A stretch of 64,000 nt of DNA from Strigamia acuminata (taxonomy: Eukaryota), in the NCBI GenBank assembly GCA_949358305.1, contig OX442314.1, positions 19,282,001 to 19,346,000 of the forward strand, read 5' to 3'. Under the pieces are notes generated by a model. That model was not told the DNA's origin, did no database searches, and saw only the letters and a list, made by a program, of their open reading frames with translations. Positions 274-45,839 of the stretch are shown piece by piece (the first letter of the stretch is position 1; each line of letters starts with the position of its first letter). The translations under genes and the position numbers were made by a program.

Positions 274-741
274 TTAACAACATTTATTGCCTAAGCTGTA
301 ATATAATTGAATATTTTGCTAAGTTATGACGCAAAATATGAATTATATAAAGAGGCAATAAATGTTGTTATTTCCCACCCAACTTTTAGTTTTTGTTTTT
401 CTCGTTGATTGATATCTTGACCGCCCTTACAACATTTGTTTATTGTTTTTTATCGTATTTTCAGATCGCCAATAAGTCGATCCGTCACCTCTCCTTGATG
501 CCTTTCAGTAAATAAAGTATTATTTCTGAAACAACTTGTTTTTTATTCCTCAGTTCCTTAAAATTGGACTGGGGTCAGGTCTCGGGCTAGACCATAAGTA
601 GGGGTCAACCCCTCCACCTGGTATTTTTTCTTTAAAGTACTAGTATTTATTTTAATAATTGGACAAGCCTATAGTTAACAACATTTATTGCCTCTTTATA
701 TAATTCATATTTTGCGTCATAACTTAGCAAAATATTCAATT
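1..741 (+). mobile_element. 3' end of a DIRS-like (tyrosine recombinase) retrotransposon
   Basis: The ORF ending at 273 reads like a YR C-terminus (TIARWIK..L..AGV..FSAHFTRAAATS..ILRAADWSS..FFKFY). 305-370 is the exact reverse complement of the terminal 676-741 (ICR-like), and there is a 28-bp direct repeat at 265-292/666-693. Host intron sequence resumes at about 742 (tttaacag), matching the paralog near 22724. Confidence 0.85.
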
Positions 742-749
742 TTTAACAG

Positions 750-3425
750 CTTACAATACAAAAAAATCAAATGAAATCAAATTTAAAACAGTTTTGGCAC
801 ATCCCAAGCAAATCCAGAGTTGAAATTAATGTTGCTCTAACCGAGGTAATTTTCTTTTAATTTTTCCATTTTTTTTTATTGAATATTATTAAACGCGCAC
901 GTAGTATAACTTTGTGACAAATAAATGGAAAAAATGTGTTGCGATCGAAGAGTATGAGAGGTGTTACGACAATTGTTTTGTAAGACATTACCGTGAAGGT
1001 CAGCTATACCCTGAAATCAAGAAACATTTCTCATGCAGGTAAAATTAACAATCACATCTTATAGTAAATTGAAACAAACTTGGTTTTTCGATGCTTAGAT
1101 ATCCATTTGATCCCGAATTTATACATTTGCCACCATGCAGTCAAACCGACTTTTTGACGTACATTATTCATGCAATTTTTCCTGTGCGCCTTAAACCATC
1201 TGTCTGTAATTGTTCAGACCCATGTCACGATTACACGTTTGATATAAATTTCCACTACTATGCCAACCAAAAAGCTAACACAAACGTCAAAATAAGAAAA
1301 AGAACTTATTATGTAACTACATTCACTCAGCTGTACAGTTATGACATTACCACACTTCTGTGTGACATTGGAGAAAACTTAGGTCTTCTATTAGGCCTAT
1401 CATTACTTTCTATCTGCGACGTAGTGTACGTATGCTTCAAACACATTTCCATTAAAAGATGTTTGAAGAGATATAAAGTGTGTTCCTCTGTGAAAAGTAA
1501 AATTCAGCACATTTGTGAAATACACATGAAGAAGAACCAGGTCCCGCCATACGGCCCGTCGATGAGCGCAAAAATAATGAAAAACAAACGATCTTTTTCC
1601 AGTATACTCTGTATTGCTATATACTTGACATCATTGGGTTTTTGTTCGTTTATTACGATAAACAGAGCTTTACATTACTTCAGCTTTCCTACTAAAACTA
1701 TTGTTCGAGTGCGTAAAAATGAAACAATACAGTTTCCAACTATCGCTGTTTGTGCAGATAATAATTACATCAAAGATTTAAGAAATTTGTATTTCAAAAT
1801 CACTGGAAATCACTCTTGCTTGCCTTTGGATCAATACTTGGATGCATCAGAAACTACAGTACAAGATTTATGGCACAAATCTGCAACAGGAAATGTTATA
1901 TATCATGACAATTTCCCTGCTTTGGTATCAATATATTTATTATTATTATTACATTTAATTTTACTAAAGAGCAGAACCAACTGTAGAAAAACATATTTAG
2001 CCTTAATGTACCTTTCAACGTTTCAAGTGCTGATTTTTCCAGATTAACACGGGTGTGGTAATTGAAAAATCAAATTCGTCAAAAAACTTTGCCAAAAGTA
2101 AAAATTTTTATAGAATAAACAGGTGTACCGTATTCAAAAATTATTGCATGTTTTTGTTTTGACCTTCATCAGAACTACAAAAATATGGCAATATAAAATT
2201 CACTACACTTTACCGCAAAGTAACCCACCCCTGGTCCAGACCACGCATTTTAATCAGATAAATCAGTCAAAATAACTTTTCTATTGCAGCTAGAGTATGG
2301 CTGGATGTTTTTCTTTAAGTTGGCTAGTTCGAAATCGAAATGCTGCTTCTTAAAATTGTCTCTTTGTAAAAGAAATTTTTTTTTCCATCATCCATGGGCA
2401 TTGAAAAGTCGACATTTACCAATTATCCGACGGTGTATGGAAATTGTGCTAAATACAAGTTAGGTCTGTTATATCACTGTTTGAATAATAGTAATTTATT
2501 CTAATATGACTTCAATGCTAACTGTTCACAGATAAACCACTGGACGTGTTTGGAACTACGACTACAGTAGAAAGCGCGGTATACAATGTGAATGATTCTT
2601 CTTGTGAACAACCCGTAGTAACGGTATGTTCGTTAAAATAAATCGGCTAGAACAAGTGCATTATTTAAAAAGAATTCTTAGATTTTCATAGCCCCGAAAG
2701 ACGTCCCTTTAGATTTTGAGTTACGCACAACCCTGAAAATTCCAAGGAATAAAATAGCTATTATCGCTTTAAGATTTCAAAAAGTAATTAACTTATTGTC
2801 ATTGAAAATATTTAATTACGATACATTATTATTGATAGCAAAAAAATTGTATTACAGATAATTAGGTTAAATAGCCAAGACGAGCAACAATGCTCAAATA
2901 GAAAAACTGCTATCGATTGCCTTATGAAATGTCACGAAAAACTACTCTTCGAAAAAATACCTTGCAGGGAAGTTAACTGTTAATTTACAATTTACATATA
3001 GAATTATAACTGTTTTAGTTAAAATAAAGATCTTGTCTACTCTCTGCAGGTTGCCTTTCATGCCTGAAAATGGGAGACAGCAATTTTGCACAAATTCAAG
3101 ATCTGCTGAAGTATCCAGAACAATCTATGAAGAAATCTACGAAAGACATTTCCCAGATAGCAGTTGCAAATGTTTACCATCCTGCACCGAATTGAGATAC
3201 GAGTACAGCGACTTCATTGAACCTTACGACGAAGAGTTTACTTTTATTCAACTTTTCTTTCCAAAGGATCTCTTTGAAACGATTGAACAAGTGTATTCGT
3301 ATACATTCATAAAATTTATTTGTGATGTTGGCGGTATTTTGGCAATTGGATTAGGGTTCACAGTTTTAACGTTAGTTGATACTCTTCAAGCTCTCATCAG
3401 TTTTGCAGTTTCTTCTAAACATTAA
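750..3425 (+). CDS. Double-domain DEG/ENaC channel gene, copy 1 (5' exons lie upstream of the window)
   Basis: Exons 750-845, 905-1038, 1099-1924, 2373-2463, 2532-2623, 2682-2783, 2858-2967 and 3050-3425 join in frame without stops. They contain TM2 (CDIGENLGLLLGLS), a second TM1 with FPTIAVC, GNC, CLPSC and a second TM2 (CDVGGILAIGLGFT). The last donor is non-canonical (GG). Confidence 0.8.
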
Positions 3426-4082: not shown

Positions 4083-4154
4083 AAATTAATTTAACCCGGA
4101 CCTGAAAAATTTGTGTCAAGAACGTGAGTGTTGAAATTTGTTTTGAACGTAATA

Positions 4155-12239: not shown

Positions 12240-15200
12240 ATGTTCAGTTTACTTGAGACATCCAGCAACATGTATTTAATTCAGAAAAAAATTACAAGAC
12301 GGCTATTAGGACAAATAATTCGGACAGAACTGGATTATAAACGACTCCAAATTCCAATTGTTGGATTATCATTCGCCCAAAACAATCAAAGATCAGTGTT
12401 GTTAAGAATAATATGGGTTATTGTTTTATTGACGTGTGTTGTAACTTGTGGTTATCAAGCATACGACCGTATAAGACATTATTGCTCTGCGCCGATAAGA
12501 GTTGATGTCAAGTACAGCATTGGTGATAATTATTTTCTGCCCTCTGTTACCGTATGCGCTCACGATACACCATCATGGATTGAATACATCGAAAACAATT
12601 CGGAAGTTGCTAGTAAGATTCAATCGTTTCAAGATGAGTATCCATGCGCCAATCAGATATTGGATTTTGATGATTCTATTAATGAGAAATCAGTTGGCGA
12701 AATTTGGAAAATGTTCAACACAAGTACAGTTCTTGAAAGCTATAATTTAGCGAAGGTACAGTACATTTATCATTTGTATTTTAAAAAGACTTGATGACTA
12801 TTTTCCAAGAATAAATAAAAAAAAAGTACACTTAAAAAATGGATGGCAACGATTACGTACTGTACGACTAAATACCGAACCAGAGCCTAAATCTTATGAT
12901 GAAGATGAAAATAGTCACAAAATTCTTATCACTACACTACACGAGCACCATTGGAAAAGCCATTTACACTTCAAAACATTTTAAACATCGATTTAAACTT
13001 CAATGTAAACTTTCTGACTGTGGCTGGTCTGATTTAACTTGTTAAATAGCGACAGTTTAGTCAGAATTTTTCCACAATGATTCAAAATATCAGATTTTGA
13101 AAACTCGAATACACATCATAGTGTTATTTTCAAGCGAAAACAATAGTTTTGACTGGAGCGGAATGTTCAGGGCTGTCGTTAGATGTAAAATAATGCGATT
13201 CCGCATCAAAGAATTTCGTTCAGTGATAACGGCCAAATTTGGCATTTTAAACTGATTTTTCGAATGCAGCTATTGTTTTATATTATCATATTCTAAGAAT
13301 TCTCAACCATTCTTTTCTCTCCAGGGAAAAACCTTGCTGCCAAATACTAGTGTTCAACTAATTAATACAAATTTATCGTTAGGCAACTGCTTAAAATTTT
13401 CATATGGTTTGTATTTTTTTTAAATTTCATTCTTGATTTAAACATTATTTTATTTTTTATCAGACGATGCTAGTGATGAAAAGGCTAATAAATTCGATTT
13501 TAAAATAAAAAAACCCAAAGGAGGTTGCAATCGAGCTTCTAGATTGATGGTAAAAGTGATAGAGGTTTATAGAAATCAGGTTTCTCAACTGTCTGTTCTC
13601 AATGTATTACAGCTTACAATACAAAAAAATCAAATGAAATCAAATTTAAAACAGTTTTGGCACATCCCAAGCAAATCCAGAGTTGGAATTAATGTTGCTC
13701 TAACCGAGGTAATTTTCTTTTAATTTTTCCATTTTTTTATTGAATATTATTAAACTCGCACGTAGTATAACTTTGTGACAAACAAATGGAAAAAATGTGT
13801 TGCAACCGAAGAGTATGAGAGGTGTTACGACAATTGTATTAAAAAACAATACGATGAGCTTCAGCTAGATCCTGATTTCGAAAACCATTTCTCATGCAGG
13901 TAAAATTTACAATCACTTTTTATAGTAAATTGGAACAAACTTGGTTTTCCTATGCTTAGATATCCATTTGATCCCGAATTTATACATTTGCCACCATGCA
14001 GTCAACCCAACTTTGAGACGTATCTTTATCATGGAATTTTTCCTGTGCGCGTTAAACCATCTCACTATCATTGTTCAGACCCATGCCACGATTACACGTT
14101 TGACATAAATCTCCACTACTATGCCCACCAAAAAGCTAACACAAACGTTCAAATTAGAAAAGAAACTTATTATGTAACTAGTAGTTACATAATAAGTTTC
14201 TTTTCTAATTTTCACTCAGCTGTACAGTTATGACATTGTCACACTCCTGTGTGACATTGGAGGAAACTTAGGACTTCTATTAGGCCTATCAATACTTTCT
14301 ATCTGCGACGTAGTGTACGTATGCTTCAAACAAATTTACATTAATAGATGTCTGAAGAGATACAAAGTGTGTTTCTGTGTTAAAAGTAAAATCCAGCATA
14401 TTTGTGAAATGCAAATGATGAAGAACCAGGTCCCGCCATACGGCCCGTCGATGAGCACAAAAATAATGAAAAACAAGCGATTCTTTTCCAGTATACTCTG
14501 TATTGCTATATACTTGACATCATTGGCTTTTTGTTTATATATTACTGTAAACAGGGCTTTACATTACTTCAGCTTTCCTACTAAAACTATTGTCAGAGTG
14601 CATAAAAATGAAACAATACAGTTTCCAACTATCGCAATTTGTGCAGATAATGATTACATAAAAAATGTAAGAGATTCGTATTTCAAAATCACTGGAAATC
14701 ACTCTTGCTTGCCTTTGGATCAATACTTGGATGTATCGGAAACTACAGTACAAGATTTGTGGGAAAATTCTGCAACAAGTGATGTTATACATTATGAGAT
14801 TTCCCCTGCTTTGGTATCAATAAATTTATTATTACATTTAATATTACTAAAGAACAGAACCTACTGTAGAAAAAACATATCTAGCCTTAATGGGGTGGCC
14901 TCCAAAATGTCTAATGCCAAAATGTCTAATCCCTAAATGTCTAAGCCGAAATGTCTAATCTGAAATGGCTAATGGACCAAATGTCTCATCCAAAATGTCT
15001 AACGAGGGGAACACCCGTATAAGATACTCACAGATTGTTGTAATAATAAACGTGGAGAATTGTTGTATCATGCTGAATGCAACCCTAAAATAATTTCATT
15101 CCATAAACAGCCAACAATGCAAACAATGAGCTCAAAGTTTGCACTATTTTGTCTGTGTATTCATCCAATCTGAGCAATCAGGCCTAGTGTATGAATACTG

Positions 15201-17187
15201 TAAACAACAGTTGCTAGGTAAAGAATAGTTCCAAGATCCAAGTTCAATTTTATCATTTGATATTTAATGATGTAATTTCCTCATTTGATATCACATGACA
15301 TATGACATCAGAACTTTGTTCACCAACATGACTGTCTTCAGGAAGACAACAATAGTTTGTAGTGGTGGTGCAGTGGTTAAGCAATGGACTAGGAATCTTT
15401 CCACACAGGTTCAAATCCTGCTGTCTGTGAAAATTTTTTACTTTTATTTTTTAATTTTTACAGCAGTAATTTTAATGTTTGTAATTTTATGTTTGTTTTT
15501 AGAAAACTTTAATTAATTAATTTTAATTTTTTAACAAACATAAAATTACAAACATTAAAATTACTGCTATAAAAATTAAAAAATAAAAGTAAATTTTTTT
15601 TACAATTTTTAGCAGGATTTGAACCTGTGTGGAAAGATTCCTAGTCTATTGCTTAACCACTGCACCACCACTACAAACTATTATTGTCTTCCTGAAGACA
15701 GTCATGTTGGTGAACAAAGTTCTGATGTCATATGTCATGTGATATCAAATGAGGAAATGACATCATTAAATATCAAATGATAAAATTCAACTTGGATCTT
15801 GGAACTATTTTTTACCTAGCAACTGTTGTTTACAGTATTCATACACTAGGCCTGATTGCTCAGATTGGATGAATACACAGACAAAATAGTGCAAACTTTG
15901 AGCTCATTGTTTGCATTGTTGGCTGTTTATGGAATGAAATTATTTTAGGGTTGCATTCAGCATGATACAACAATTCTCCACGTTTATTATTACAATAATC
16001 TGTGAGTATCTTATACTGGTGTTCCCCTCGTAAGCCGAAATGTCTAATTCGAAATGTCAGCTAGAGTATGGCTGAATGTTTTTCTTTAAGTTGGCTAGTT
16101 CGAAACCAAAATACTGTTTTTTAAAATTGTCTCTCTTTTGAAAAGAGTTTTTTTTTTTCGTCGTCCTTGGACTTATTAAAGTCGAGATTTACCACTTATC
16201 CTACGGTGTATGGAAATTGTGCTAAATTCAAGTTAGGTCTGTTATATCACTGTTTGAATAATAGTATTTCATTCTAATATGACTTCAATACTAACTGTTC
16301 ACAGATGAACCATTGGAAGTGTTTGGAACTACGACTACAGTAGAAAGCATCATAAACAATGTGAATGATTCTTCTTGTGAACAACCCGTAGTAACGGTAA
16401 ATTCGTTAAAATAAATCAGCTAGAACAAGTGCAATATTTAAAAAGAATTCCTAGATTTTTATAGCCCCGAAAGACGTCCCTTTACATTTTGAGTTACGCA
16501 CAACTCTAAAAATTCCAAGGAATAAAATAGCTATTATCGCTTTGAGATTTCAAAAAGTAATTATTGTCATTGAAGATACTTAAATACGGTATATTATTAT
16601 TGATAACAATAAAAATTTTATTACAGATAATTAGATTAAACAGCCAAGACAAGCAACAATGCACCAATAGAAAAACTGCAATCGATTGCCTTACGAAATG
16701 TCACGAAAATCTACTCTTCAAAAAAATACCTTGCAAGAAAGTTAACTGTTAATTTACATATAGAATTAGAATTGTTTTAGTTGAAATAAAGATCTTGTCT
16801 ACATATTACAGGTTGCCTTTCATGCGTCAGAAAATGAAGCAACAATTTTGCACAACTTCAAGATCTGCTAAAGTATCCAGAACAATTTATGAAGAAATCT
16901 ACGCAAGACATTTCCCAGATAGCAGTTGCAAATGTTTACCATCCTGCACCGAATTGAGATACGAGTACAGCGACTTCGTTGAACCTTACGACGAAAAGTT
17001 TACTTTTATTCAACTTTTCTTTCCAAAAAGTCTCTTAGAAACGATTCAAGAAGTGTATTCATATACATTCATACAATTTATTTGTGATGTTGGCGGTATT
17101 TTGGCAATTGGATTAGGGTTCACAGTTTTAACGTTAGTTGATACTCTTCAAGCTCTCATCAGTTTTGCAATTTCTTCGAAACATTAA
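12240..17187 (+). CDS. Double-domain DEG/ENaC channel gene, copy 2 (11 exons, roughly 830 aa; one frameshifting insertion, so possibly a pseudogene)
   Basis: Exon 1 (12240 or 12270 to 12755) has TM1 (LLRIIWVIVLLTC) and LPSVTVC. Later exons start near 13325, 13463, 13613, 13767, 13960, 16146, 16305, 16455, 16627 and 16812 and are collinear with copies 1 and 3. The only lesion seen is the inverted duplication at 14181-14210. Confidence 0.75.
14892..16058. mobile_element. Truncated element with AAATGTCTAA subterminal repeats, in an intron of ENaC copy 2
   Basis: About 10 copies of AAATGTCTAA-like units at 14904-15002 and 16031-16058. Absent from copies 1 and 3, and it replaces part of the intron. 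Confidence 0.6.
15003..16030. mobile_element. Foldback/MITE-type element, near-perfect 1-kb palindrome with TAA TSD (PIF/Harbinger-like)
   Basis: Arms 15003-15497 and 15533-16030 are reverse complements (CGAGGGGAACACC...GGTGTTCCCCTCG), flanked by TAA on both sides. Confidence 0.9.
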
Positions 17188-21350: not shown

Positions 21351-23808
21351 TATAGGTATTCATGGTAACAGTCTGCGTCTAGTCATTAGTACATTGAATT
21401 TACTTGATACATACAGCAACATGCCTTTGACTAAGAAAAATATTAGAAGATGGCTCTTAGTATAAAGAATTCAGACAGAACTGGAATACAAACGACATCA
21501 AATTCCAATTGTTGGATTATCATTCGCCCAAAACAATCAAAAATCGGTGTTGTTAAGAATAATATGGGTTATTGTTTTATTGACGTGTGTTGTAACTTGT
21601 GGTTATCAAGCATACGACCGTATAAGATATTATTGCTCAGCACCCATCAGAGTTGATGCTAAGTACAGCATTGGTGATAATTATTTTCTGCCCTCTCTAA
21701 CCGTATGCGCTCACGATACACCATTATGGATTGAATACATCGAAAACAATACTAGGTTTCAACGTATGCTTCAACTGTATCAAGCTCGGTTTCCCTGCGC
21801 TAATCAACTATTAGAATCGTATAATTTAATTAATAAGAAATCAGTTGGCGACATTTGGAAAATGTTCAACACAAGTACAGTTCTTGAAAGCTATAATTTA
21901 TCGAAGGTACAGTACTTTTATCATTTGTATTTTAAAAAGACTTGATGACTATTTTCTAAGAATACATAACAAAAAGTAAGTTTAAAAAATGGATGGCAAC
22001 TATTATGTACGTACGACTAAATATCGAACCAGAGCCTAAATCTTATGATGAAGTTGAAAATAGTCACAATTTCTTATCACTACACGAGCACCATTCGAAA
22101 AGCCCATTTACACTTCAAAACATTATAAACAGATTAAACTACAATTTAAACTTCCTGACTGCGACTTGTCTGATTTAACTTGTAAAATGGCGACTGTTTA
22201 GTCAGAATTTTTCCACAATGATTCAAAATATCATATTTTGAAAACTCGAATACAACACAAGTGAAAACAATAGTTTTGACTGGAGCGGAATGTTCAGGGT
22301 TATGTGGTTAATTCATCGTCAAAGAATTTCGCTCAGTAATAACGGCCAAATTTGGCAAATTTAAACTGATTTGTCAAATGCAGCTACTGTATTGTCCTAT
22401 ATCATCATCTTCTAAGAATTCTCAACCATTCTTTTCTCTTCAGGGAAAAACCTTGCTGCCAAATACTAGTGTTCAACTAAGTGATACAAATTTATCGTTA
22501 GGGAACTGCTTAAAATTTGCATATGGTTTGTATTTTTTGAATTTCTTTTTTGATTTAAACCTGATTTTATTTTTTTATCAGACGATGCTAGTGATGAAAA
22601 GGCGAATAAAATCAATTTCAAAATAAAAAAACCCAAAGGAGGTTGCAATCGAGCTTCTAGATTGATGGTAAAACTGATGGAGTTTTACAGAAATCAGATT
22701 TCTCAACTGTCTGCTTCTCAATGTTTAACAGCTTACAATACAAAAAAATCAAATGAAATCAAATTTAAAACAGTTTTGGCACATCCCAAGCAATTCCAGA
22801 GTTGAAATTAATGTTGCTCTAACCGAGGTAATTTTCTTTTAATTTTTCCATTATTTTTTATTGAATATTATTAATAAACACGCACTTAGTATAACTTTGT
22901 GACAAATAAATGGAAAAAATGTGTTGCAATCGAAGAGTATGAGAGGTGTTACGACAATTGTTTAAAAAATATGTATGATGAGGGTCTCAAAGATCCTTAT
23001 TACGAGGACTATTTCTCATGCATTTAGTAGTAAATTGGAACAAACTTAGTTTTTCTTTGCTTAGATATCCATTTGATCCCGAATTTATACATTTGCCACC
23101 ATGCAGTCAACCCGACTTTGCGACGTACATTGTTCATGCAATTTTTCCCGTGCGCCTTAAACCATCTCTCTGTAATTGTTCAGACCCATGCCACGATTAC
23201 ACGTTCGATATAAATTTCCACTACTATGCCCACAAAAAAGCTAACACAAACGTCAAAATTAGAAAAGAAACTTATTATGTAACTACATTCACCCAGCTGT
23301 ACAGTTATAACATTGTCACACTCCTGTGTGACATTGGAGGAAACTTAGGACTTCTATTAGGCCTATCAATACTTTCTTTCTGCGACGTCGTGTAACTTAC
23401 ATATGCTTCAAACAAATTTACATTAAAAGATGTCTGAAGAGATACAAAGTGTGTTCCTCTGTGAAAAGTAAAATCCAGCACATTTGTGAAATCCAAATGA
23501 TGAAGAACCAGGTTCCACCATACGACCCGTCGATGAGCACAAAAATAATGAAAAACATGCGATCTTTTTCCAGTATACTCTGTATTGCTATATACTTGAC
23601 ATCATTGGCTTTTTGTTCATTTATTACGATAAACAGAGCTTTACATTACATCAGCTTTCCTACTAAAACTATTGTCCGAGTGCGTAAAAATGATACGATA
23701 CAGTTTCCAACTATCGCAATTTGTGCAGATAATAATTACATCAAAGATTTAAGAGATTTGTACTTCAAAATCACTGGAAATCACTCTTGCTTGCCTTTGG
23801 ATCAATAC

Positions 23809-26800
23809 TGTAGCATAGTGAATAAAGGATAACCTCATTGCTTGAACGCTAGCTAACTTGTGTTTAATGTACTCTATGACCTTGCACTCCTCCTTGCGCC
23901 TCGCGCCCTCTATCGGTTACATTTAACAACACTACATCCCTCCCCTTGTCCGGAGTACAACAACAATCAAGAACAATTCGACAAACATTAAATTTGATAA
24001 CAATAATTCGACACCAAAACAATAATTAATAAAATTCGACAATCAATAAGTTCTATCACAATTCAGTATATAGTTCACAGTTTCACTTTTTTCTCTTCTT
24101 GCAACACATATCATAGTCCTTTTGCCACGACGGCTTGTTTGTTTTCCTATTTGATTTCCTCAGCACGAATGGATCCTCGGGTTCCGGCACAGCCGGGATA
24201 TCCTCCGGTTCCTGAGCGGGTGGAACAATTCCCTGCTCCCCTCTCTCTTCCACTCTCGACTCCGTATCACATAATGGCGTTTTTTCCTCACTTTCATCAC
24301 TCGTCTCCAGCTGCGGGTCCCTTCCTCTCCCTCCGTCATCCTCATCCATCTCCCCATCCCCCTGTCTTACTCTCTCCAATTCCTCCCCTCTCTCTTGACG
24401 TATCTTCTTGAAGAACGATGAGTTTCGCACCACGTTCTGTCTTCCCCTGTTGGCTGTCACTTGAGAACCCGCTATCGCTATAATTCTGAACGGTTCCGGA
24501 TCATACGGTGTTGTTAGTTTATTCACCTTCCTTCTTCTCACCAGGACTACGTCTCCCACCAATAGCCCGTGTTCCCGAACATGCCTCTTTCCATCTGCCA
24601 AACTCTTCATACTCCCCTTCTTTTCCTCATCTCTCTTCCTCATTATCGCATCGTTTGGCCTCACGAAAACTTGTGGTAACCTGGTCTTAATCGGTCTGCC
24701 GTACATCGCGTCGGCCGGCGAAACTCCCGTGGTCGCATGTGGAGTCGCGCGGTAATTTAGAAGGAACTCGTGGACTTCCTCGTGCCATTTCCGTCCCTCC
24801 GTAACCGCCGTCAAGATCGCTTTGTTTAAAGTTTTCATTAAACGTTCAACTTCTCCGTTCGCTTCGGGCCACAGCGGCGTAACTCGATGGTGTCGCACGC
24901 CCATTTCGGCCAGAAAATCCGCGAACTCGCATGACGAAAATGGCGGTCCGTTATCGGACTTCACCGTCTCCGGGATGCCCAACTCCGAGAAACGCTTTCT
25001 CAGAAGCGCGATGACGCCCCGAGCCCCCGTCGACGACACGCCGTCCACAAATGGGAAGCGTGAATACTCGTCTACGATGACAAATAAAATCCTGCCGTCG
25101 GGAAACGGTCCTAAAAAGTCAATTGCGACCTTCTGCCAAGGCCGGTCGGGTAAACTGGACATCTCCAATGGGGTCCTCGATTTTGTCACCACGGTTGCTT
25201 GGCAAGGAATGCATCCCGCTATAAGCCGCTCCACCCGCATATCAATTCCGGGAAACCACACCTTTTGGCGTAAGAGCATCTTGGTTTTCACCACTCCCTG
25301 ATGTCCCCGGTGAGCGATCTCCACTACTTTGTCTCTTAGTGACTCGGGCACCACAATTCGATCGCCCCGAAGGATGATTCCGTCCTCAGTATTCGTAAAT
25401 TCTTCCTGCAACATTTTAAACGGTTTTAAACATTCTTTTTTCCATGTTTTCTCACGTTCTGCTCCCTCCTGTGTCAGCGCTTGTTGTAAAAGTTTCAAAC
25501 TGACATCCTCGTTTGTACACTTCGCAATCTCCTCCCGTGTTAGTGATTTCGGCACACGAGTCCTGACCACGAAATTAACATATCCCTCCACGGTCCTCGA
25601 CATGGCGCCGTCCTTCAGGCCTCTTGTCCCCGTATGTCGCGACATATAATCGCTGGGGTTGGAATTTCCTCTCGTGTACTTTACCTCGAACACATATTGT
25701 TGTATTCGAAGGCAAAGCCTCTCTATCCTTGCCGAAGGTCGCGCTTTGCGGTTCCCGAAAATGCTTATTAACGGCTTGTGATCTGTGAAAAGGGTAAACA
25801 TTGTTCCATATAAGTATAAATAGAAGTGCTCGATGGCCCAAATTGCCGCCAAGGTTTCACGTTCAATTTGAGAGTATCTACTCTCTACATCCGTTAAAGT
25901 CCGGCTGGCATACGCCACTACTCGAGGTTCGCTCTCGCCGCTCCTAATTTGCGCCAAAATTGCGCCGAGTCCATTTGGCCCCGCGTCTACCGTCAGGTGC
26001 GTGCTTGCCGTCGGGTCATGATAGGCCAGCGTGTTCCTATTTCCGAGCTGCTCCTTTATGCACATCCACGCCTCCTGATGTTCCTTTTCCCATCGAAACG
26101 GCCCATTTGAACTTTTCGTCAGGTCCCGCAACGGTTTCAAAATTTTCGCCATATCTCTGACGAAACGAGCACAATAAACTACCATACCGAGCAGACTCTT
26201 TACCTCCGCTGACGATTTTGGGATTTCCATCTTATCGATTGCCTCCACTTTTCGTGGGTCAATTGAGACCCCGGCCGCTGAAAATACATGTCCAAAAAAC
26301 ACTATCTCACCACGGCGCACCTCACATTTGTCCTCGTTTAAAGTCAGTCCTTTTTTTTCCAGTCGCTTCAAAACGGCGTGCAGCGCCGCGTCGTGTACCT
26401 CCACAGTTTTTCCTACAATGAAAATGTCATCAACAATGTTAATGCAACCCTGCAAACCCTCGATCACTTGACGTATGGTGTCCTGGAATAACTCAGAAGC
26501 TGAGTTTATCCCAAACAATAGCCTTTTAAAACGAAATAGGCCCACATGAGTCGCAAAGACAGTATATTTACGAGATTCCGCATCTAACTCAACTTGATTG
26601 AATCCATGATTCAAATCGAGTTTTGAAAAAAACCGCGCTCCCTCCGCCAGCGCCACAATGTCTTCCAACCGCGGCGAAGTGTGCCTAACCCTTTTAATCG
26701 CTCTGTTCACTTCCCTTGCGTCAACACAGAGGCGGATCGCGTCGGGGTCCGGGTCTTTGGGTTTGTCCACGCAGTGGATCGGTGAGACCCACGGCGTCGG

Positions 26801-28561
26801 CCCCATTCCTTCGTCGATCCGTTCGATCACATCCATTTGCAGCAATCGGTCGAGTTCTTTTTCGACCTTCTTTCTTAATCGAAATGGCAGTGGGCGGTAG
26901 CGCTGCGCCACCGGCGCTACTTCCTCGTCCACGTGTAGGTGAATTTGGTATTCCTTGAGTTTTCCCACTCCCTGGAATAATTTGGGATATTGTCTTTTTA
27001 TCTCCTCCTCCAACGTTGTTTTCTTGATATTGTTCACCACCTGCACGATTCCCAGTTGTTTCGCCGTTGCGTAATTCAACAATGACTCACCCGGCCGATC
27101 CACCACGTACGCCGTCGCTTCTAATTCCATCTCTTCGTAACGGATCATTAATGTCACTCGGCCCAATAATGGCAGCGGCTCGGATGATCCATACGTCATC
27201 AGCTTAGCACGACTTTCCTTCAACATCGGTTTTAACTTCATCGCCCAATAATCCTCTCTGCCCAAAACATTCACTGAAGTTCCCGAATCAACGATGAATC
27301 TCGTATCCCTACGCTCTTCCCCCACTGTCAAACACACTTCCGGCATCTTTGGGCTCCCCTTTCTGCCGTCTGAACACAAACCGATTGTAAACAACTCCTC
27401 ATCATCACTCTCCTCGACATAGTCGCACTTCACTGCATTTATTTTGTTATTAGCTTCCGCCCCCTCCTCTCGCTTTACTCGACAAAAGCGCACGAAATGA
27501 CCCGTCTTACCGCATCCCCGACACGCCACTCCCCTCGCCGGACAGTCCTGTGGCGTGACGTGTGGCCACGCTCGACCGCAATTAAAACACTTCCTATTTC
27601 CCGAGCCACGGGATCCGCCGAATCCGCCACGAGCCGCGCCACCTGTCGATTCTCTCCTACGGTACCCCGTTTCACTGTTCGCTCTCCTCCTGCCCTCAGT
27701 CGATGCTCGAACCAGGTTAATTTCACCCGTTACCTCTTTCTCGCTACCTTCCATTTGTTTTGCTTGCCACTCCGAGGCTTCGTATCCTCGGCCCAGGTCC
27801 AGAAGCTCTTTCAATGTCAGCGTATCATCACGCAACGCCTGTCGTCGTAATCGGTTCAAACTTGTCCCCAGAATTATTTGGGATTTAATCTCGCGGTCAT
27901 CGTCCTTAAAATCGCATCCCACCGCTAAATGTCTCAATCTCATCTGGTATTTATCTAACGGTTCCGTCGCCTCCTGGCGGGACATTCGGAATGTATAAAT
28001 GCAAAATTCCGTATTCTTTTTGGGAATAAAATAGGCAGTTAATGCGTCCTTTACCGTTTTATAGTTCTTATCCTCCTCCTCTATCACTAAAGTCTCATAA
28101 ACGGCGAACACCTCCTCACCCGCCTGGTGAAGTAACGTCGCCATTTTCCTCATATCGTCCTTGATTCCCGCCGCCAACATAAACATTTCCAGCCTGCTAA
28201 TCCACCTTTGCCAACGCTGGGATTGAGTGGTGGTCTCGCCATGAACATCGAATGGTGGGATGCCTGCCGACCGCAGAAAACCAGACGTCGCCGTTTCATC
28301 CGCCATATTGTCGCGTTTCGCGTCTGTTTTACTCTCCTCCTCGCACAATTCCATCAGCCGCAACCACACCGCTCATTTACTGTTCGTATGCACTCGTATC
28401 GCGTCTATTTCATCAAACTTCCCTCGTCGCCAATGTAGCATAGTGAATAAAGGATAACCTCATTGCTTGAACGCTAGCTAACTTGTGTTTAATGTACTCT
28501 ATGACCTTGCACTCCTCCTTGCGCCTCGCGCCCTCTATCGGTTACATTTAACAACACTACA
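23809..28561 (-). mobile_element. Full-length Ty3/Gypsy LTR retrotransposon (Mag-like)
   Basis: Identical 128-bp LTRs at 23809-23936 and 28434-28561; 5-bp TSD AATAC. Minus-strand PBS TGGCGACGAGG (tRNA-Ser-like) at 28422-28432 and PPT AAGGGGAGGGA at 23937-23947. Confidence 0.97.
24083..28369 (-). CDS. Gypsy Gag-Pol polyprotein (single ORF; exact start codon uncertain)
   Basis: Two CCHC-type knuckles, protease IVDSGTS, RT (LDLNHGF..IVDD), RNase H (VDAG..YSQIERE), integrase (HRGH..CIPC, IDF, SDNGPPF, NGEVER) in PR-RT-RH-IN order. Confidence 0.95.
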   Translation of the reverse strand: MWLRLMELCEEESKTDAKRDNMADETATSGFLRSAGIPPFDVHGETTTQSQRWQRWISRLEMFMLAAGIKDDMRKMATLLHQAGEEVFAVYETLVIEEEDKNYKTVKDALTAYFIPKKNTEFCIYTFRMSRQEATEPLDKYQMRLRHLAVGCDFKDDDREIKSQIILGTSLNRLRRQALRDDTLTLKELLDLGRGYEASEWQAKQMEGSEKEVTGEINLVRASTEGRRRANSETGYRRRESTGGAARGGFGGSRGSGNRKCFNCGRAWPHVTPQDCPARGVACRGCGKTGHFVRFCRVKREEGAEANNKINAVKCDYVEESDDEELFTIGLCSDGRKGSPKMPEVCLTVGEERRDTRFIVDSGTSVNVLGREDYWAMKLKPMLKESRAKLMTYGSSEPLPLLGRVTLMIRYEEMELEATAYVVDRPGESLLNYATAKQLGIVQVVNNIKKTTLEEEIKRQYPKLFQGVGKLKEYQIHLHVDEEVAPVAQRYRPLPFRLRKKVEKELDRLLQMDVIERIDEGMGPTPWVSPIHCVDKPKDPDPDAIRLCVDAREVNRAIKRVRHTSPRLEDIVALAEGARFFSKLDLNHGFNQVELDAESRKYTVFATHVGLFRFKRLLFGINSASELFQDTIRQVIEGLQGCINIVDDIFIVGKTVEVHDAALHAVLKRLEKKGLTLNEDKCEVRRGEIVFFGHVFSAAGVSIDPRKVEAIDKMEIPKSSAEVKSLLGMVVYCARFVRDMAKILKPLRDLTKSSNGPFRWEKEHQEAWMCIKEQLGNRNTLAYHDPTASTHLTVDAGPNGLGAILAQIRSGESEPRVVAYASRTLTDVESRYSQIERETLAAIWAIEHFYLYLYGTMFTLFTDHKPLISIFGNRKARPSARIERLCLRIQQYVFEVKYTRGNSNPSDYMSRHTGTRGLKDGAMSRTVEGYVNFVVRTRVPKSLTREEIAKCTNEDVSLKLLQQALTQEGAEREKTWKKECLKPFKMLQEEFTNTEDGIILRGDRIVVPESLRDKVVEIAHRGHQGVVKTKMLLRQKVWFPGIDMRVERLIAGCIPCQATVVTKSRTPLEMSSLPDRPWQKVAIDFLGPFPDGRILFVIVDEYSRFPFVDGVSSTGARGVIALLRKRFSELGIPETVKSDNGPPFSSCEFADFLAEMGVRHHRVTPLWPEANGEVERLMKTLNKAILTAVTEGRKWHEEVHEFLLNYRATPHATTGVSPADAMYGRPIKTRLPQVFVRPNDAIMRKRDEEKKGSMKSLADGKRHVREHGLLVGDVVLVRRRKVNKLTTPYDPEPFRIIAIAGSQVTANRGRQNVVRNSSFFKKIRQERGEELERVRQGDGEMDEDDGGRGRDPQLETSDESEEKTPLCDTESRVEERGEQGIVPPAQEPEDIPAVPEPEDPFVLRKSNRKTNKPSWQKDYDMCCKKRKK

Positions 28562-29145
28562 AATACTTGGATGTATCGGAAACTACAGTACAAGATTTAT
28601 GGGACAATTTTGCAACAGGAAATGTTACATATCTTGGGAAATACACTCCTTTGGTATCAATAAATTCCTTATTACATTTACGTTTACTGAAGATCAAAAC
28701 AGAACTTATAGAAAAACATATCTAGCCTTAAACGTTTCAAGTGCTGATTTATCCAGGTACCAGGTATACACAGGTGTGTTGAATAAGAAATCAAATTCGT
28801 CAAAACTTGCCACAATTAGGAAATATTATAAAATAAACATTATCCATGTGTGTTGTGACCTTCACCAGAACTGCAAAGTTTGGAATAATAAAATTCACCA
28901 CACTTTGCCACAAAGTAACCCACCCCAGGTCAAAACCAGTCAAAATAACTTTTCCAATGCAGCTCAAATGTTGCAGGCTGTTTTTCTATAAGTTGGCTAG
29001 TTCAAAATCGAAATAATGTTTCTTAAAATTGTCTCACTTTTTAAAAGAAATTTTTTATTACATCGTTCACGGAGAATAAAAAGCCGAGATTTACCAATTA
29101 TTCGACGGTTTATGGAAATTGTGCTAAATACAAATTAGGTCTGTT

Positions 29146-29170
29146 CTTGGACGAACAGTGTTCGTCCAAG
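29146..29170. repeat. 25-bp perfect palindrome insertion with 7-bp target duplication
   Basis: GTCTGTT|CTTGGACGAACA-G-TGTTCGTCCAAG|GTCTGTT; absent in copies 1 and 2. Confidence 0.85.
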
Positions 29171-30421
29171 GTCTGTTATATCATTGTTTGAATAATAGTA
29201 ATTCATTCTAATATGACTTCAATACTAACTGTTCACAGATGAACCACTGGAAATGTTTGGAACTACAACTACAGTAGAAAGCACGATATACAATGTGAAT
29301 GATTCTTCTTGTAAACAACCCATAGTAACGGTACGTTCGTTAAAATAAATCGGCTAGAACAAGTGCAGTATTTAAAAATAATTCCTAGATTTTCATAGCC
29401 CCGAAAGACGTCCCTTTAGATTTTGAGTTACGCACAACTCTGAAAATTCCAAGGAATAAAATAGCTATCATCGCTTTAAGATTTCAAAAAGTAATTATTG
29501 TCATTGAAGATACTTAAATACGATATATTATTATTGATAACAATAAAAATTTTATTACAGATAATTAGATTAAACAGCCAAGACAAGCAACAATGCACCA
29601 ACAGAAAAACTGCAATCGATTGTCTTACGAAATGTCACGAAAATCTACTTTTCAAAAAAATACCTTGCAGGAAAGTTAACTGTTAATTTACATATAGAAT
29701 TAGAATTGTTTTATTTAAAATAAACATCTTCTCTACACTCTACAGGTTGCCTTTCATGCCTGAAAATGGGAGACAGCAATTTTGCACAAATTCAAGATCT
29801 GCTGAAGTAGCCAGAACAATTTATGAAGAAATCTACGAAAGGCATTTCCCAGATGGCAGTTGCAAATGTTTACCATCCTGCACCGAATTGAGATACGAGT
29901 ACAGCGACTTCATTGAACCTTACGACGAAGAGTTTACTTTTATTCAACTTTTCTTTCCAAAAGGTCTCTTAGAAACGATTCAAGAAGTGTATTCGTATAC
30001 ATTCATACAATTTATTTGTGATGTTGGCGGTATTTTGGCAATTGGATTAGGGTTCACAGTTTTAACGTTAGTTGATACTCTTCAAGCTCTCATCAGTTTT
30101 GCAGTTTCTTCGAAACATTACAAATTAAATATTTTATTTTATAAAAACTGATTAGAAAAACTGATTAGACTTGATACTTTGTTCAATGTTAGTATTACCG
30201 GAACCCAGAACAGGATGAATCGTATTCACCCCCCCCCCCCCTTAGCAACAAATGTCTCCCACTCAGGCCCGTCTGTTGACATATAACCATTTTTTCCCTT
30301 CACCTAGCAGGAGTCTCATCAATTCTGGGCTTAATTTACTTTATCACAAATGAGCTTTTTTTGGTCCAAAAGTACTATTTTGGACACAAGTTTAACTTCT
30401 ATTGCATAGTCTTACTCTTAA

Positions 30422-39492: not shown

Positions 39493-40536
39493 ATGAAGAG
39501 TTGTTTGGTAAGTCTCAATTTTCATGTCCAATGTGATAAAACTTAATTTTCGGTTTTATTTTATCAGCTTTTCATTTTGATTTTGGGATATTCATCCGGA
39601 CAAACCTTCATAGATGAATACGAAGATGATTTTGTACAGCCTCAAAAGAATTTCAACAGACCAACCAATGATTACGAAGACGATTACGTTGCAGAAAATC
39701 AGAAGAGATACCAAAAGCCAACTCATGTCAGCCCACATCGAAAGGAAGCGCCGCCACCACCACCATTAATAGTGAAACAAATCAATGAGATGAATCAAGA
39801 TGGGTCTTACACATTTGGTTATCAAAGTGAGGATGGTTCATATCGCGTAGAAACTCGAAACATTGATGGATATACGAGAGGCAAGTACGGATATATTGAT
39901 GCTAAGGGTGAGCTTAAAGAAGTGGAATACTCAGCTGGTTCAACCGGATATATTCCTTCCGGAGACCACATCCAGGTGCCGCCACCAGCACCGCCACCAC
40001 GCCCAGAGGTTGCCAGGCCGAAAGTAAGTCAAGGTGAAACTCGCGGTCGTGCAATCCCGCAAAAGGAAGTTGTTCAAGATTACGATATTGACTATGAGGA
40101 TGATTTGGTCACTATTCAATCTAACATACGTGGGAATTCCAATAAAAATTATGCGAACGATGACCGTCGAAATAATAAAAACAAGTTTAGTCAAAGAGAG
40201 AAAGATGGCAAAATAGAAATAGATAACAAGGCAGCAAATGGAGCGCCAATTTTGGAATTAAGTATTGAGTATCCAAACGCAGGGAAAGTTCCAACTGCAG
40301 GTAGAATTCCGAATGTAGACCGGATTTTAAACACGGGAAGAATTCAAAATGGAAGACATTCAAATGTAAGAATTCCAAACGGAGGAAGAAACTCAAATTT
40401 GAGAAATCAAAGTGGAAGACGACATCCTGATGTCAGAATTGCAGATGGAGGAAGAGATCTAAATGAACGAAGAAATACAGAAAGACGAGGAAAAAATCAA
40501 TTCGTGGGAACATCTAAAAATGTCTTTGATTTTTAA
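39493..40536 (+). CDS. Cuticular protein with Rebers-Riddiford chitin-binding consensus
   Basis: Exon 1 at 39493-39507 (MKSCL) and exon 2 at 39568-40536. Signal peptide, then DGSYTFGY..DG..R.E....G..RGKYGYID..G..V.Y.AG..GY, then an Arg/Asn/Gly-rich tail. Confidence 0.9.
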
Positions 40537-45300: not shown

Positions 45301-45839
45301 TTAGTAATAGTAACTTTACACAGAGTTTAAAAATTATTACTTTTTCATTATTTTCTAATAATGCACAGCAAGTGTTTTCAACAAGTGATGTCAGCAGACA
45401 AAGAAAGATTTGTATGCTTATTACAATTAAACAAAAACTAATATCAGATAATCTATAAAGCCTGCTTCACGAAAGCAAAAGGCAAGCTACAAAATGAATA
45501 ACATTTTTTTTTATCAACACACGAATCTACTGATCTAGTCTACACTTTCACAATCGTAGCTCGCGGTTGTGAATCGTGTCTGTGTACACTCAAACGTAAG
45601 TATTATTATTTGATGGATGAAAATAACTAAGCGAAAAATTCTGAATTTAACACGTCTTTCCACTCGACACATTAAAATAAAATTAATTTCGGAATTATTC
45701 GCTCAGTTATTTTGTGTAACCTAGCGGAAATCCGTTACTGGACATTTTGACGCAACAATAACCTTTTTAGCAAAGTGTATCACATTTATAACAATTTTTT
45801 TTTCATCTGATCACAGATTTCTTGCATTTTCAAAATAAG

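What the first reader, a model, noticed from the sequence alone, without database searches (positions are those of the whole stretch)
1099..1924. Naturally concatenated two-subunit DEG/ENaC channel: TM2 of one subunit joined to TM1 of the next inside one exon
Seen: one uninterrupted exon encodes the end of a DEG/ENaC subunit (QLYSYD..LLCDIG.NLGLLLGLS), an approximately 50-aa basic linker, then the start of a second subunit (TM1 ILCIAIYLTSL..YFSFPT..FPTIAVC). The same junction occurs in all three paralogs (near 1340-1750, 14240-14640 and 23300-23720), so it is not an artefact of merging neighbouring gene models. Known: DEG/ENaC/ASIC/ppk subunits have two TMs and assemble as trimers. Inference: a four-TM covalent heterodimer cannot form a trimer alone. 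It would need a 2+1 assembly with a single-domain partner, cross-linking of two trimers by three chains, or linker cleavage. I cannot confirm novelty without a search.
Basis: partly seen in the sequence, partly recalled or inferred. Interest (0 to 1): 0.88.

Follow-up and report, generated by a model that had tools for sequence, protein, structure and literature searches.

The report
Two-subunit DEG/ENaC channel gene, centipede-type
One exon joins the end of one DEG/ENaC channel subunit in frame to the start of a second, an arrangement shared with a centipede relative and kept open by selection, so the gene is predicted to make a covalent two-subunit chain in a channel family known only as trimers of single subunits; no transcript has been seen yet.

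Summary
Window 1099-1924 is one exon with canonical splice sites. It encodes the palm and TM2 of a DEG/ENaC domain (A), a 55-residue basic linker (14 K/R, 1 D/E), then TM1 and the first ectodomain part of a second domain (B).

The three copies in the window are recent tandem duplicates (dS about 0.13), so they are not independent evidence. Independent support comes from:
- Strigamia maritima T1IPM9, 58% identical straight across the junction.
- 28 of 154 database relatives with the same C-module to N-module order. Of the 24 whose source I looked up, 22 are Strigamia.
- One unnamed ENA contig with a single ORF across a junction.
- Domain trees that separate A-type from B-type modules.

Within the window the reading frames are protected: P(no stop | neutral) is about 0.001, and exons hold 1 indel in 1747 columns against 5 in 496 intron columns.

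Only copy 1 is unbroken in what the window shows, and its exons 1-3 are not in the window. Copy 2 has a 28-nt frameshifting insertion. Copy 3 has several lesions, including a fresh LTR retrotransposon. One B-domain donor is non-GT in all three copies.

No RNA data were available, so expression, cleavage and stoichiometry are untested. My paper searches found no description of a natural tandem DEG/ENaC. Verdict: a new variant of a known kind.

The parts
750..845 (+). Copy 1, exon 4 (domain A ectodomain). Homology to copy 2 begins only at 736, inside intron 3, so exons 1-3 of copy 1 are not in the window.
   Evidence: tblastn with Strigamia P0002; blastn of copy 2 against the window; splice table ag|..|gt
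905..1038 (+). Copy 1, exon 5 (domain A); ends TGCAG|gtaaaa, phase 2
1099..1924 (+). Copy 1, exon 6, the junction exon: end of domain A (palm, TM2), linker, start of domain B (TM1, first ectodomain part)
1379..1435 (+). TM2 of domain A, preceded by GENLGLLLGLS (G-x-S motif = GLS)
   Evidence: Kyte-Doolittle window 19, score 2.18; Pfam ASC profile end
1436..1603 (+). Predicted cytoplasmic linker. Of 55 residues counted, 14 are K/R and 1 is D/E. First in-frame Met at 1526-1528. 27 of 53 residues are identical to Strigamia by my hand count on the alignment.
   Evidence: dN/dS 0.22-0.26 between copies
1604..1660 (+). TM1 of domain B, followed by YFSFPT...FPTIAVCA
   Evidence: Kyte-Doolittle 2.19; Pfam ASC profile start
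2373..2463 (+). Copy 1, exon 7 (domain B)
2532..2623 (+). Copy 1, exon 8 (domain B)
2682..2783 (+). Copy 1, exon 9 (domain B)
2858..2967 (+). Copy 1, exon 10 (domain B). Its donor at 2968-2969 is GG, not GT (GA in copies 2 and 3).
3050..3425 (+). Copy 1, exon 11: palm and TM2 of domain B (GLGFT in place of G-x-S), stop TAA at 3423-3425
12270..17187 (+). Copy 2, all 11 exons: 12270-12755, 13325-13406, 13464-13549, 13613-13708, 13766-13899, 13960-14813, 16146-16236, 16305-16396, 16455-16556, 16627-16736, 16812-17187. As it stands the frame stops at 14231-14233. Leaving the 28 inserted bases out gives one ORF of 826 aa.
14151..14211 (+). 61-nt palindrome in copy 2 exon 6, made by a 28-nt inverted duplication (about 14180-14207). 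It shifts the frame just before TM2 of domain A.
21427..30151 (+). Copy 3, disabled. TAA at 21463-21465 in exon 1; a 19-nt deletion removes the exon 5 donor; 5-nt insertion in TM2 of A at about 23393-23397; LTR element inside exon 6; final stop changed to TAC, extending the ORF to 30151.
23809..28561 (-). LTR retrotransposon inside copy 3 exon 6. It has a 1429-aa RT/RNaseH/integrase ORF and 128-nt terminal repeats that are 100% identical.

Best explanation
The exon at 1099-1924 is the junction exon of an 11-exon gene in which two divergent DEG/ENaC subunit domains are joined in frame, and this gene is predicted to make a single chain of about 826 residues with four membrane helices and two ectodomains.

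Shown here:
- The join lies inside one exon.
- Each half has its own TM1, Cys-rich ectodomain and TM2.
- The closest public relative has the same join.
- The reading frame, linker included, has been protected from stops and frameshifts.

Inferred:
- Origin. An internal tandem duplication of a compact single-domain gene of the BRTNaC1/PDPNaC1 type ran from the first exon to the last. That would create a hybrid exon (last-exon head plus first-exon tail) and remove both A's stop codon and B's start. The linker is alignable with the N-terminal cytoplasmic segment of domain A. B's own post-TM2 tail is only about 10 residues.
- Age. The A-B form then likely spread as a gene family in centipedes.
- Mechanism. 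The basic linker would lie in the cytoplasm and tie TM2 of A to TM1 of B, as in engineered ASIC concatemers. Because solved channels of this family are trimers, a two-domain chain cannot close one trimer alone. The simplest closed assembly would be three chains forming two linked trimers (A-B-A plus B-A-B, or A3 plus B3). The alternative is two positions from one chain plus a third from a single-domain partner.

State of this window: one copy is possibly functional (copy 1, whose 5' exons are out of view) and two copies were recently disabled.
For: 1. Architecture in the window.
- Pfam ASC hits lie on both sides of the join.
- All splice sites are canonical except one.
- Spliced copy 1 exons 4-11 read as one 608-aa ORF.
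- Copy 2 reads as one 826-aa ORF once the 28 inserted bases are left out.
- My N- and C-module HMMs find the order C-N-C in spliced copy 1.

2. Independent species.
- The only hit of the 'longer' search (1 of 639 candidates) is Strigamia T1IPM9, 907 aa.
- It aligns at 58% identity over 278 residues without a break across TM2, linker and TM1.
- The segment between TM2 and the first Met would be untranslated if A and B were separate genes. It is conserved there too (IKRCLK, SKI..IC.I).

3. Family.
- phmmer of T1IPM9 against 1.84 billion representatives gave 244 hits at E<=0.001.
- Of the 154 database proteins held, 28 show a C-module followed by an N-module.
- I looked up 24 of these: 22 Strigamia, 1 Helobdella (with a 170-residue gap between the modules) and 1 unnamed ENA contig of 1154 nt whose single 241-aa ORF spans a junction. 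Four were not looked up.

4. Age.
- In the careful tree, the 7 terminal (B-type) C-modules form one side of a branch (UFBoot 72, SH-aLRT 87).
- The AU test rejects A and B as sisters within P0004 (p 0.0002) and within P0012 (p 0.0096).
- The N-module tree gives the same split, support 85.

5. Selection.
- Simulated neutral substitutions leave the 1824-nt coding sequence free of stops in 0.05-0.15% of 2000 runs, with a mean of 6.6-7.5 stops.
- Indels between copies 1 and 2: 1 event in 1747 exon columns against 5 in 496 intron columns. Between copies 1 and 3: 2 true exon events in 1746 columns against 8 in 459.
- dN/dS is 0.54-0.59 overall and lowest in the linker, 0.22-0.26.

6. Fold.
- The AlphaFold2 model of the clean two-domain paralog P0004 has pLDDT 70.2 and pTM 0.63.
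- Residues 423-783 match BRTNaC1 (8ymr_A: Z 21.3, rmsd 4.6, 338 aligned).
- Residues 51-379 match PDPNaC1 (9jf7_A: Z 19.8, rmsd 3.9, 316 aligned).

7. Feasibility. ASIC subunits covalently joined C- to N-terminus gave currents that were characterised in oocytes (PMC4899722, passages read).
Against: - No transcript or protein evidence. No RNA run holds the stretch.
- Two of the three copies are broken, and exons 1-3 of copy 1 are not in the window.
- The exon 10 donor is GG or GA in all three copies. Domain B therefore needs a non-canonical splice, or it was already defective in the founder copy.
- Exons and introns are about equally identical between copies (90-94% against 90-92%). A dN/dS near 0.55 is only moderate constraint.
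- The A/B split is not strongly supported (72/87). For the window/T1IPM9 lineage itself, the AU test does not reject A and B as sisters (p 0.138).
- All Strigamia proteins used are automatic gene models. T1IPM9's own B domain lacks about 55 residues and carries an odd tail.
- Domain B has GFT where the family has G-x-S.
- A conserved Met in the linker (1526) would allow a B-only product.
Confidence: 0.6

Rival explanations
1. The locus is read as two proteins. Domain B would be made on its own from an internal start (the conserved Met at 1526-1528, 'QMMKN' in the other copies and in Strigamia). Domain A would be made from a transcript that ends or is spliced differently. The open linker would then reflect overlapping use and not a fused product.
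For: - The Met is conserved in all three copies and in T1IPM9.
- The part of the linker after it is homologous to the N-terminal cytoplasmic segment of domain A.
- The ORF-breaking indels in copies 2 and 3 lie in domain A. B's exons stay open in copies 1 and 2.
Against: - There is no stop codon for A anywhere before the end of B.
- The 30 residues between TM2 and the Met are conserved as protein between species.
- I saw no AATAAA in the linker DNA (by eye).
- 28 of 154 relatives keep the C-to-N order, with linkers of about 25-70 residues.
Confidence: 0.15
2. Nothing in this window is functional. The array would be three decaying copies of a two-domain gene whose working copy, if any, lies elsewhere. 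The open frames would be leftovers of recent duplication.
For: - Copy 2 has a frameshift and copy 3 has at least four lesions.
- Exon 10 has a non-GT donor in all three copies.
- Homology of copy 1 stops at 736, next to repeat sequence with a tyrosine-recombinase ORF.
- Exon identity is about equal to intron identity.
Against: - Neutral drift at the observed divergence should have produced about 7 stops and more than 15 exon indels per pair. Observed: no stops in exons 4-11 and 1-2 indels.
- The LTR insertion has identical LTRs, so it is very recent.
- Copy 1 shows no lesion in 1824 coding bases.
- This reading concerns the copies only. It does not touch the two-domain architecture.
Confidence: 0.15
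3. The fused chain is made but is then cut in the basic linker, releasing ordinary single subunits A and B in a fixed 1:1 ratio.
For: - The linker is rich in K/R pairs (KR, KR, KK, KNKR).
- It is modelled with pLDDT below 50 at residues 400-421 of P0004.
Against: - The linker is predicted to be cytoplasmic, out of reach of secretory-pathway proprotein convertases (established topology of the family; N and C termini are inside).
- No cleavage motif was tested.
- A 1:1 supply still does not fit a trimer evenly.
Confidence: 0.1

Closest known systems
[quoted passage not shown]
   Same: - They are the closest solved relatives by sequence: PDPNaC1 E 1.5e-12 and BRTNaC1 E 5e-8 against T1IPM9.
- They are also closest by fold, Z 19.8-21.3 for each half of the two-domain paralog.
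- They are compact subunits of 421-431 aa, about the size of one domain here.
   Different: - Both are single-domain proteins with two TM helices.
- PDPNaC1 is described as a homotrimer (abstract seen in the listing; passages). BRTNaC1 is placed in a superfamily of trimeric channels and is deposited with 3 chains per entry.
- The gene here carries two such domains in one chain.
Strigamia maritima T1IPM9 (UniProt, uncharacterised, 907 aa) and its paralogs T1JD34, T1ITL7 and others
   Same: - Same N-C-N-C module order and same junction.
- 58% identity across the junction.
- Gene structure is colinear with the window copies.
   Different: - These are automatic gene models without any described function.
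- T1IPM9 lacks about 55 residues of domain B and has an extra C-terminal tail that the window copies do not support.
Engineered ASIC concatemers (PMC4899722 passages read; PMC10329638 seen as search listing and abstract only)
   Same: The C-terminus of one subunit is tied to the N-terminus of the next on the cytoplasmic side, and the constructs gave currents that were characterised in oocytes.
   Different: - They are man-made and have three subunits per chain, so that one chain equals one trimer.
- Their linkers are short and artificial.
- The natural chain here has two domains and a conserved linker of about 55 residues.
Two-pore-domain K+ channels (K2P) and two-pore channels (TPC), cited from my own knowledge
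   Same: They are natural channels in which two subunit-equivalents are fused in one chain.
   Different: - They are unrelated folds.
- Their parent channels are tetramers, so two fused halves divide evenly. In a trimeric family they do not.

Membership tests
DEG/ENaC superfamily (Pfam ASC, PF00858) | Significant match to the ASC profile above the gathering score (23.6 bits) | tested here: met
   - ORF 1073-2047 scores 64.2 bits in 2 stretches; exon 11 ORFs score 42.6-51.4 bits; copy 2 exon 1 scores 43.8 bits.
- T1IPM9 scores 118 bits in 4 stretches.
DEG/ENaC superfamily (Pfam ASC, PF00858) | Each subunit has TM1, a large Cys-rich ectodomain and TM2, with both ends in the cytoplasm | tested here: met
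   - Hydropathy peaks lie at 1379-1435 and 1604-1660 and at the matching places in T1IPM9, P0004 and P0012.
- The AlphaFold2 model of P0004 has helices 38-71, 359-399, 415-452 and 755-790.
- Each half aligns end to end with a solved subunit.
- Which side of the membrane each end faces is inferred, not tested.
DEG/ENaC superfamily (Pfam ASC, PF00858) | G-x-S selectivity-filter motif in TM2 (motif recalled from my own knowledge; Gly-Ala-Ser in ASICs is mentioned in PMC12714832) | tested here: inconclusive
   - Domain A has GLS in all three copies.
- Domain B has GFT in all three copies and in T1IPM9.
- The motif is therefore met in A and changed in B.
DEG/ENaC superfamily (Pfam ASC, PF00858) | Assembly as a trimer around one pore | not testable with these tools
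   - Three chains of about 800 residues exceed the size limit of the complex predictor, so no job was sent.
- The solved relatives are deposited with 3 chains per entry.
Compact centipede NaC channels (BRTNaC1/PDPNaC1 type) | Closest sequence and fold relatives among solved structures | tested here: met
Compact centipede NaC channels (BRTNaC1/PDPNaC1 type) | One two-TM subunit per polypeptide | tested here: not met
   Two complete domains lie in one ORF. BRTNaC1 is 431 aa with two TM segments.

The most novel reading that the evidence does not exclude
Centipedes carry a whole branch of DEG/ENaC channels built as covalent multi-subunit chains. Two-domain A-B chains would make obligate paired channels, with three chains forming two pores tied together. 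At least one Strigamia locus would encode three domains in a row, a complete channel in a single polypeptide. T1IZL2 residues 367-936 overlap T1IU28 residues 20-539, and together they read N-C-N-C-N-C. This would be the first natural concatemer in any trimeric ion-channel family. It would fix subunit order and stoichiometry genetically.
Probability: 0.3. Interest if true: 0.85.

Novelty: new variant of a known kind. Interest (0 to 1): 0.64.

Why it matters
DEG/ENaC, ASIC and pickpocket channels are treated as trimers of separate two-TM subunits, and subunit order is studied with artificial concatemers. A natural two-domain chain, conserved and under selection, poses a concrete stoichiometry problem: two does not divide three. 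It also offers a ready-made system for asking how subunit order and neighbour identity shape gating.

The two characterised relatives come from centipede antennae and sense heat and protons. This gene family is therefore a plausible source of unstudied sensory receptors.

The finding also shows that apparently over-merged gene models of this family in Strigamia may be correct.

Tried and rejected
- RNA evidence. The look-up of sequencing runs listed no RNA holder, only two runs of unknown kind kept as contigs. Laid on the window they cover exons and introns alike and show no splice joints, so they behave as DNA. They reproduce 949-1120 without a difference. They report no alternative form at the copy 2 or copy 3 insertions, which does not prove cover there.\n- Whole genome. 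None is held for this window, so exons 1-3 of copy 1 and further copies could not be sought.\n- Nonsense codon in copy 1. I first read TGA at 1070-1072 as disabling. The family motif and splice phases place it in an intron.\n- Homolog searches. A search with the junction region of T1IPM9 returned only T1IPM9 itself. A 'near'-length search with the exon translation returned nothing at E<=1e-5.\n- Alternative splices for exon 10. A GT 6 nt or 13 nt downstream gives a frame with stops or an intron of 33-40 nt (by hand). Both were rejected.\n- A 32-nt 'exon' indel in copy 3 exon 7 proved to be intronic.\n- Complex prediction. Not sent. Three chains exceed 1000 residues, and an A+B pair would likely pass only by likeness to solved trimers.\n- Earlier findings of this scan. 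Nothing for this genome, this sequence or these words.\n- Papers. Two tries failed on syntax. Ten searches were run, and none turned up a natural tandem or two-domain DEG/ENaC. Searches used the phrase 'DEG ENaC', which probably does not match 'DEG/ENaC', so those three blanks are weak. Subscription journals and supplements were not searched.
Full report
**What is there.** The window is AT-rich eukaryotic DNA. It holds three tandem copies of one gene on the + strand, at about 736-3425, 12270-17187 and 21427-30151. The gene belongs to the DEG/ENaC superfamily. Pfam ASC (PF00858) is hit by 9 of the 10 ORF pieces I submitted from the three copies; the eleventh protein in that call was the transposon fragment at 1-273.

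It has the acceptor gcttag|A and the donor TTG|gtatca. Its translation runs from the palm region and TM2 of one domain (A), through a basic linker, into TM1 and the first ectodomain strands of a second domain (B). Coordinates are TM2 1379-1435, linker 1436-1603 and TM1 1604-1660. Of 55 linker residues counted, 14 are K/R and 1 is D/E.

**Gene model.** I used Strigamia T1IPM9 as a guide and read the DNA in three frames.
- The gene has 11 exons. Introns within a domain are 56-82 nt.
- All sites are GT-AG except the donor of exon 10.
- Copy 2 has all 11 exons. As it stands its frame ends at 14231-14233. Leaving out a 28-nt insertion gives one ORF of 826 aa.
- Copy 1 exons 4-11 read as one 608-aa ORF.
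- A correction to my own first reading: TGA at 1070-1072 is not a nonsense codon. Exon 5 ends at TGCAG|gtaaaa (1038) and joins 1099, which gives SCRYPFDP. This matches the C-[RK]-x-P-F motif seen throughout the family.

**State of the three copies.** They are young duplicates with pairwise dS of 0.12-0.15 and exon and intron identity of 88-94%. They therefore count as one observation.
- Copy 1 has no lesion in the 1824 coding bases visible. Its similarity to copy 2 starts at 736, inside intron 3. Upstream lies high-copy sequence with a tyrosine-recombinase-like ORF, so exons 1-3 are out of view.
- Copy 2 carries one frameshift. It is a 28-nt inverted duplication that makes a 61-nt palindrome at 14151-14211.
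- Copy 3 carries five changes:
  - a TAA in exon 1;
  - a 19-nt deletion of the exon 5 donor;
  - a 5-nt insertion in TM2 of A;
  - an LTR retrotransposon inside exon 6 whose 128-nt LTRs are identical;
  - a lost final stop codon.

**Is the open frame more than chance or youth?** Yes.
- Placing the observed number and kinds of substitutions at random on the coding sequence left it stop-free in only 0.05-0.15% of 2000 runs. The mean was 6.6-7.5 stops.
- Indel events between copies 1 and 2: 1 in 1747 exon columns against 5 in 496 intron columns.
- Between copies 1 and 3: 2 true exon events in 1746 columns against 8 in 459. The third listed exon event is intronic.
- dN/dS is 0.54-0.59 overall, 0.65-0.76 in the A part, 0.52-0.63 in B, and lowest in the linker at 0.22-0.26. 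The linker values rest on few sites.
- Against this, substitution identity is no higher in exons than in the short introns. Constraint on amino-acid change is therefore moderate.

**Independent evidence from elsewhere.**
- A search for longer relatives of the exon translation found one protein among 639 candidates, Strigamia maritima T1IPM9 of 907 aa.
- It aligns at 58% identity over 278 residues through TM2, linker and TM1 without a gap at the join.
- By my count on that alignment, 27 of 53 linker residues are identical. That includes the stretch between TM2 and the first Met, which would be untranslated if A and B were separate genes.
- phmmer of T1IPM9 against 1.84 billion representatives gave 244 hits at E<=0.001.
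- With small HMMs of the N-terminal and C-terminal modules, 28 of the 154 database proteins held show a C-module followed by an N-module.
- I looked up 24 of them: 22 Strigamia proteins, one leech protein with a long gap between the modules, and one unnamed ENA contig of 1154 nt whose single 241-aa ORF spans a junction. Four were not looked up.
- All Strigamia entries are automatic models, and I could not see their DNA.

**Age of the arrangement.**
- In a careful tree of C-modules, the seven terminal (B-type) modules lie on one side of a branch (72/87). Three long-branch rows (P0042, P0026, P0128) were left out.
- The AU test rejects A and B as sisters inside P0004 (p 0.0002) and inside P0012 (p 0.0096). 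It does not reject this for the window/T1IPM9 lineage (p 0.138).
- The N-module tree shows the same split, support 85.
- One subfamily (P0003, P0006, P0011, P0022) breaks the pattern: all its domains are alike.
- The most economical reading is one old internal duplication followed by spread of the A-B gene. Support for this is moderate.

**Fold and nearest known proteins.**
- AlphaFold2 on the clean two-domain paralog P0004, with a 24-sequence alignment, gave pLDDT 70.2 and pTM 0.63. The linker is of low confidence.
- Each half matches a full solved subunit. Residues 423-783 match BRTNaC1 (Z 21.3). Residues 51-379 match PDPNaC1 (Z 19.8).
- Foldseek ranks the same entries first.
- By sequence, PDPNaC1 (E 1.5e-12) and BRTNaC1 (E 5e-8) are also the best solved relatives.
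- Both are antennal channels of Scolopendra, one activated by heat and one gated by protons. They are 431 and 421 aa, with two TM helices per subunit. PDPNaC1 is described as a homotrimer, and BRTNaC1 is placed in a superfamily of trimeric channels (passages read in PMC9974506 and PMC12714832; abstract in the listing).

**How it most likely works.**
- Shown: two complete subunit-like domains, one ORF, and a conserved basic linker.
- Inferred origin: the linker is alignable with the N-terminal cytoplasmic segment of A, and B's own tail after TM2 is about 10 residues. The join therefore looks like A's short tail fused to B's N-terminal segment, as an internal tandem duplication from first to last exon would produce.
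- Inferred topology: both ends of a DEG/ENaC subunit are cytoplasmic, so the linker would stay inside the cell and tie TM2 of A to TM1 of B. This is the geometry used in engineered ASIC concatemers that were characterised functionally in oocytes (PMC4899722).
- Inferred assembly: a two-domain chain cannot fill a trimer evenly. I favour three chains making two tethered trimers. A single-domain partner (2+1), a B-only product from the conserved Met, and cleavage remain open.

**Unexplained.** The exon 10 donor reads CAG|GGAAGT, CAA|GAAAGT and CAG|GAAAGT in the three copies. Every other donor position fits the consensus, and the family motif IPC(R)|LPF demands a splice exactly there.
- Either this is a working non-canonical intron, or B was already impaired in the founder copy. 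The protected B frame argues for the first.
- A Strigamia paralog model (P0005) reads on past the same '..IPCR'. This hints that the gene predictor found no GT there either. I could not check its DNA.

**Novelty.** None of the ten paper searches that ran found a natural tandem DEG/ENaC. Three of them used a phrase that probably does not match 'DEG/ENaC'. Subscription journals and supplements were not covered. The proteins have sat in UniProt as uncharacterised entries. I rate this a new variant of a known kind. It is interesting if transcripts confirm it, and tempered by the lack of RNA evidence and by the broken copies in this window.

Noticed in passing
2968-2969, 16737-16738, 29671-29672: The donor of exon 10 is GG, GA and GA in the three copies. 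The rest of the donor consensus (AG|GnAAGT) is intact and the acceptor is strong. It is either a conserved non-canonical intron or a defect inherited from the founder copy.
   Followed up: partly
14151-14211: A perfect 61-nt palindrome created by a 28-nt inverted duplication of the neighbouring coding sequence. It looks like a template-switch mutation and is the only ORF-breaking lesion of copy 2.
   Followed up: yes
29139-29178: Copy 3 intron 7 holds a 32-nt insertion with a hairpin core (CTTGGACGAACA..TGTTCGTCCAAG), flanked by a repeat of GGTCTGTT. Contigs of runs X1 and X2 carry the same letters (table 5c).
   Followed up: partly
23809-28561: An LTR retrotransposon on the minus strand with an open 1429-aa ORF (RT, RNase H, integrase) and 128-nt terminal repeats that are 100% identical. 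It is a very recent insertion into a coding exon.
   Followed up: partly
4128-9467: An open 1779-aa BEL/Pao-type polyprotein ORF (Peptidase_A17, RVT_1, rve, DUF1759, DUF5641) lying between copies 1 and 2.
   Followed up: partly
1-735: High-copy sequence (depth about 15,000 in bin 700-793 against a few hundred to about 2,000 in the bins beside it). It has a tyrosine-recombinase-like ORF at 1-273 (weak Phage_integrase hit, E 0.005, below the cut-off). It abuts intron 3 of copy 1.
   Followed up: partly
14999-16034; also 42857-42967, 44729-45047: An element of about 1 kb in intron 6 of copy 2 matches its own reverse complement at 95% (foldback or MITE-like). Related pieces lie further along the window.
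   Followed up: no
45792-47090: A single open 432-aa ORF of the ERG4/ERG24 sterol reductase family (E 1.4e-43) with no intron. This is unusual for an animal gene of this family and could be a retrocopy.
   Followed up: no
39547-40536: A 329-aa ORF with a Chitin_bind_4 cuticle-protein domain (E 2.9e-15).
   Followed up: no
33796-34134 and 57832-58113: Two ORF pieces hit the same part of Peptidase_M13_N (profile about 262-358). This suggests two neprilysin-like genes or a duplicated exon.
   Followed up: no
Strigamia proteins P0003 (T1IZL2) and P0006 (T1IU28): The two models overlap (P0003 367-936 against P0006 20-539, 76% identity including gaps). Together they read N-C-N-C-N-C, a possible three-domain single-chain channel.
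   Followed up: partly
30119-30151: Copy 3 has TAC where copies 1 and 2 have the final TAA stop. This extends the ORF by 10 codons.
   Followed up: partly
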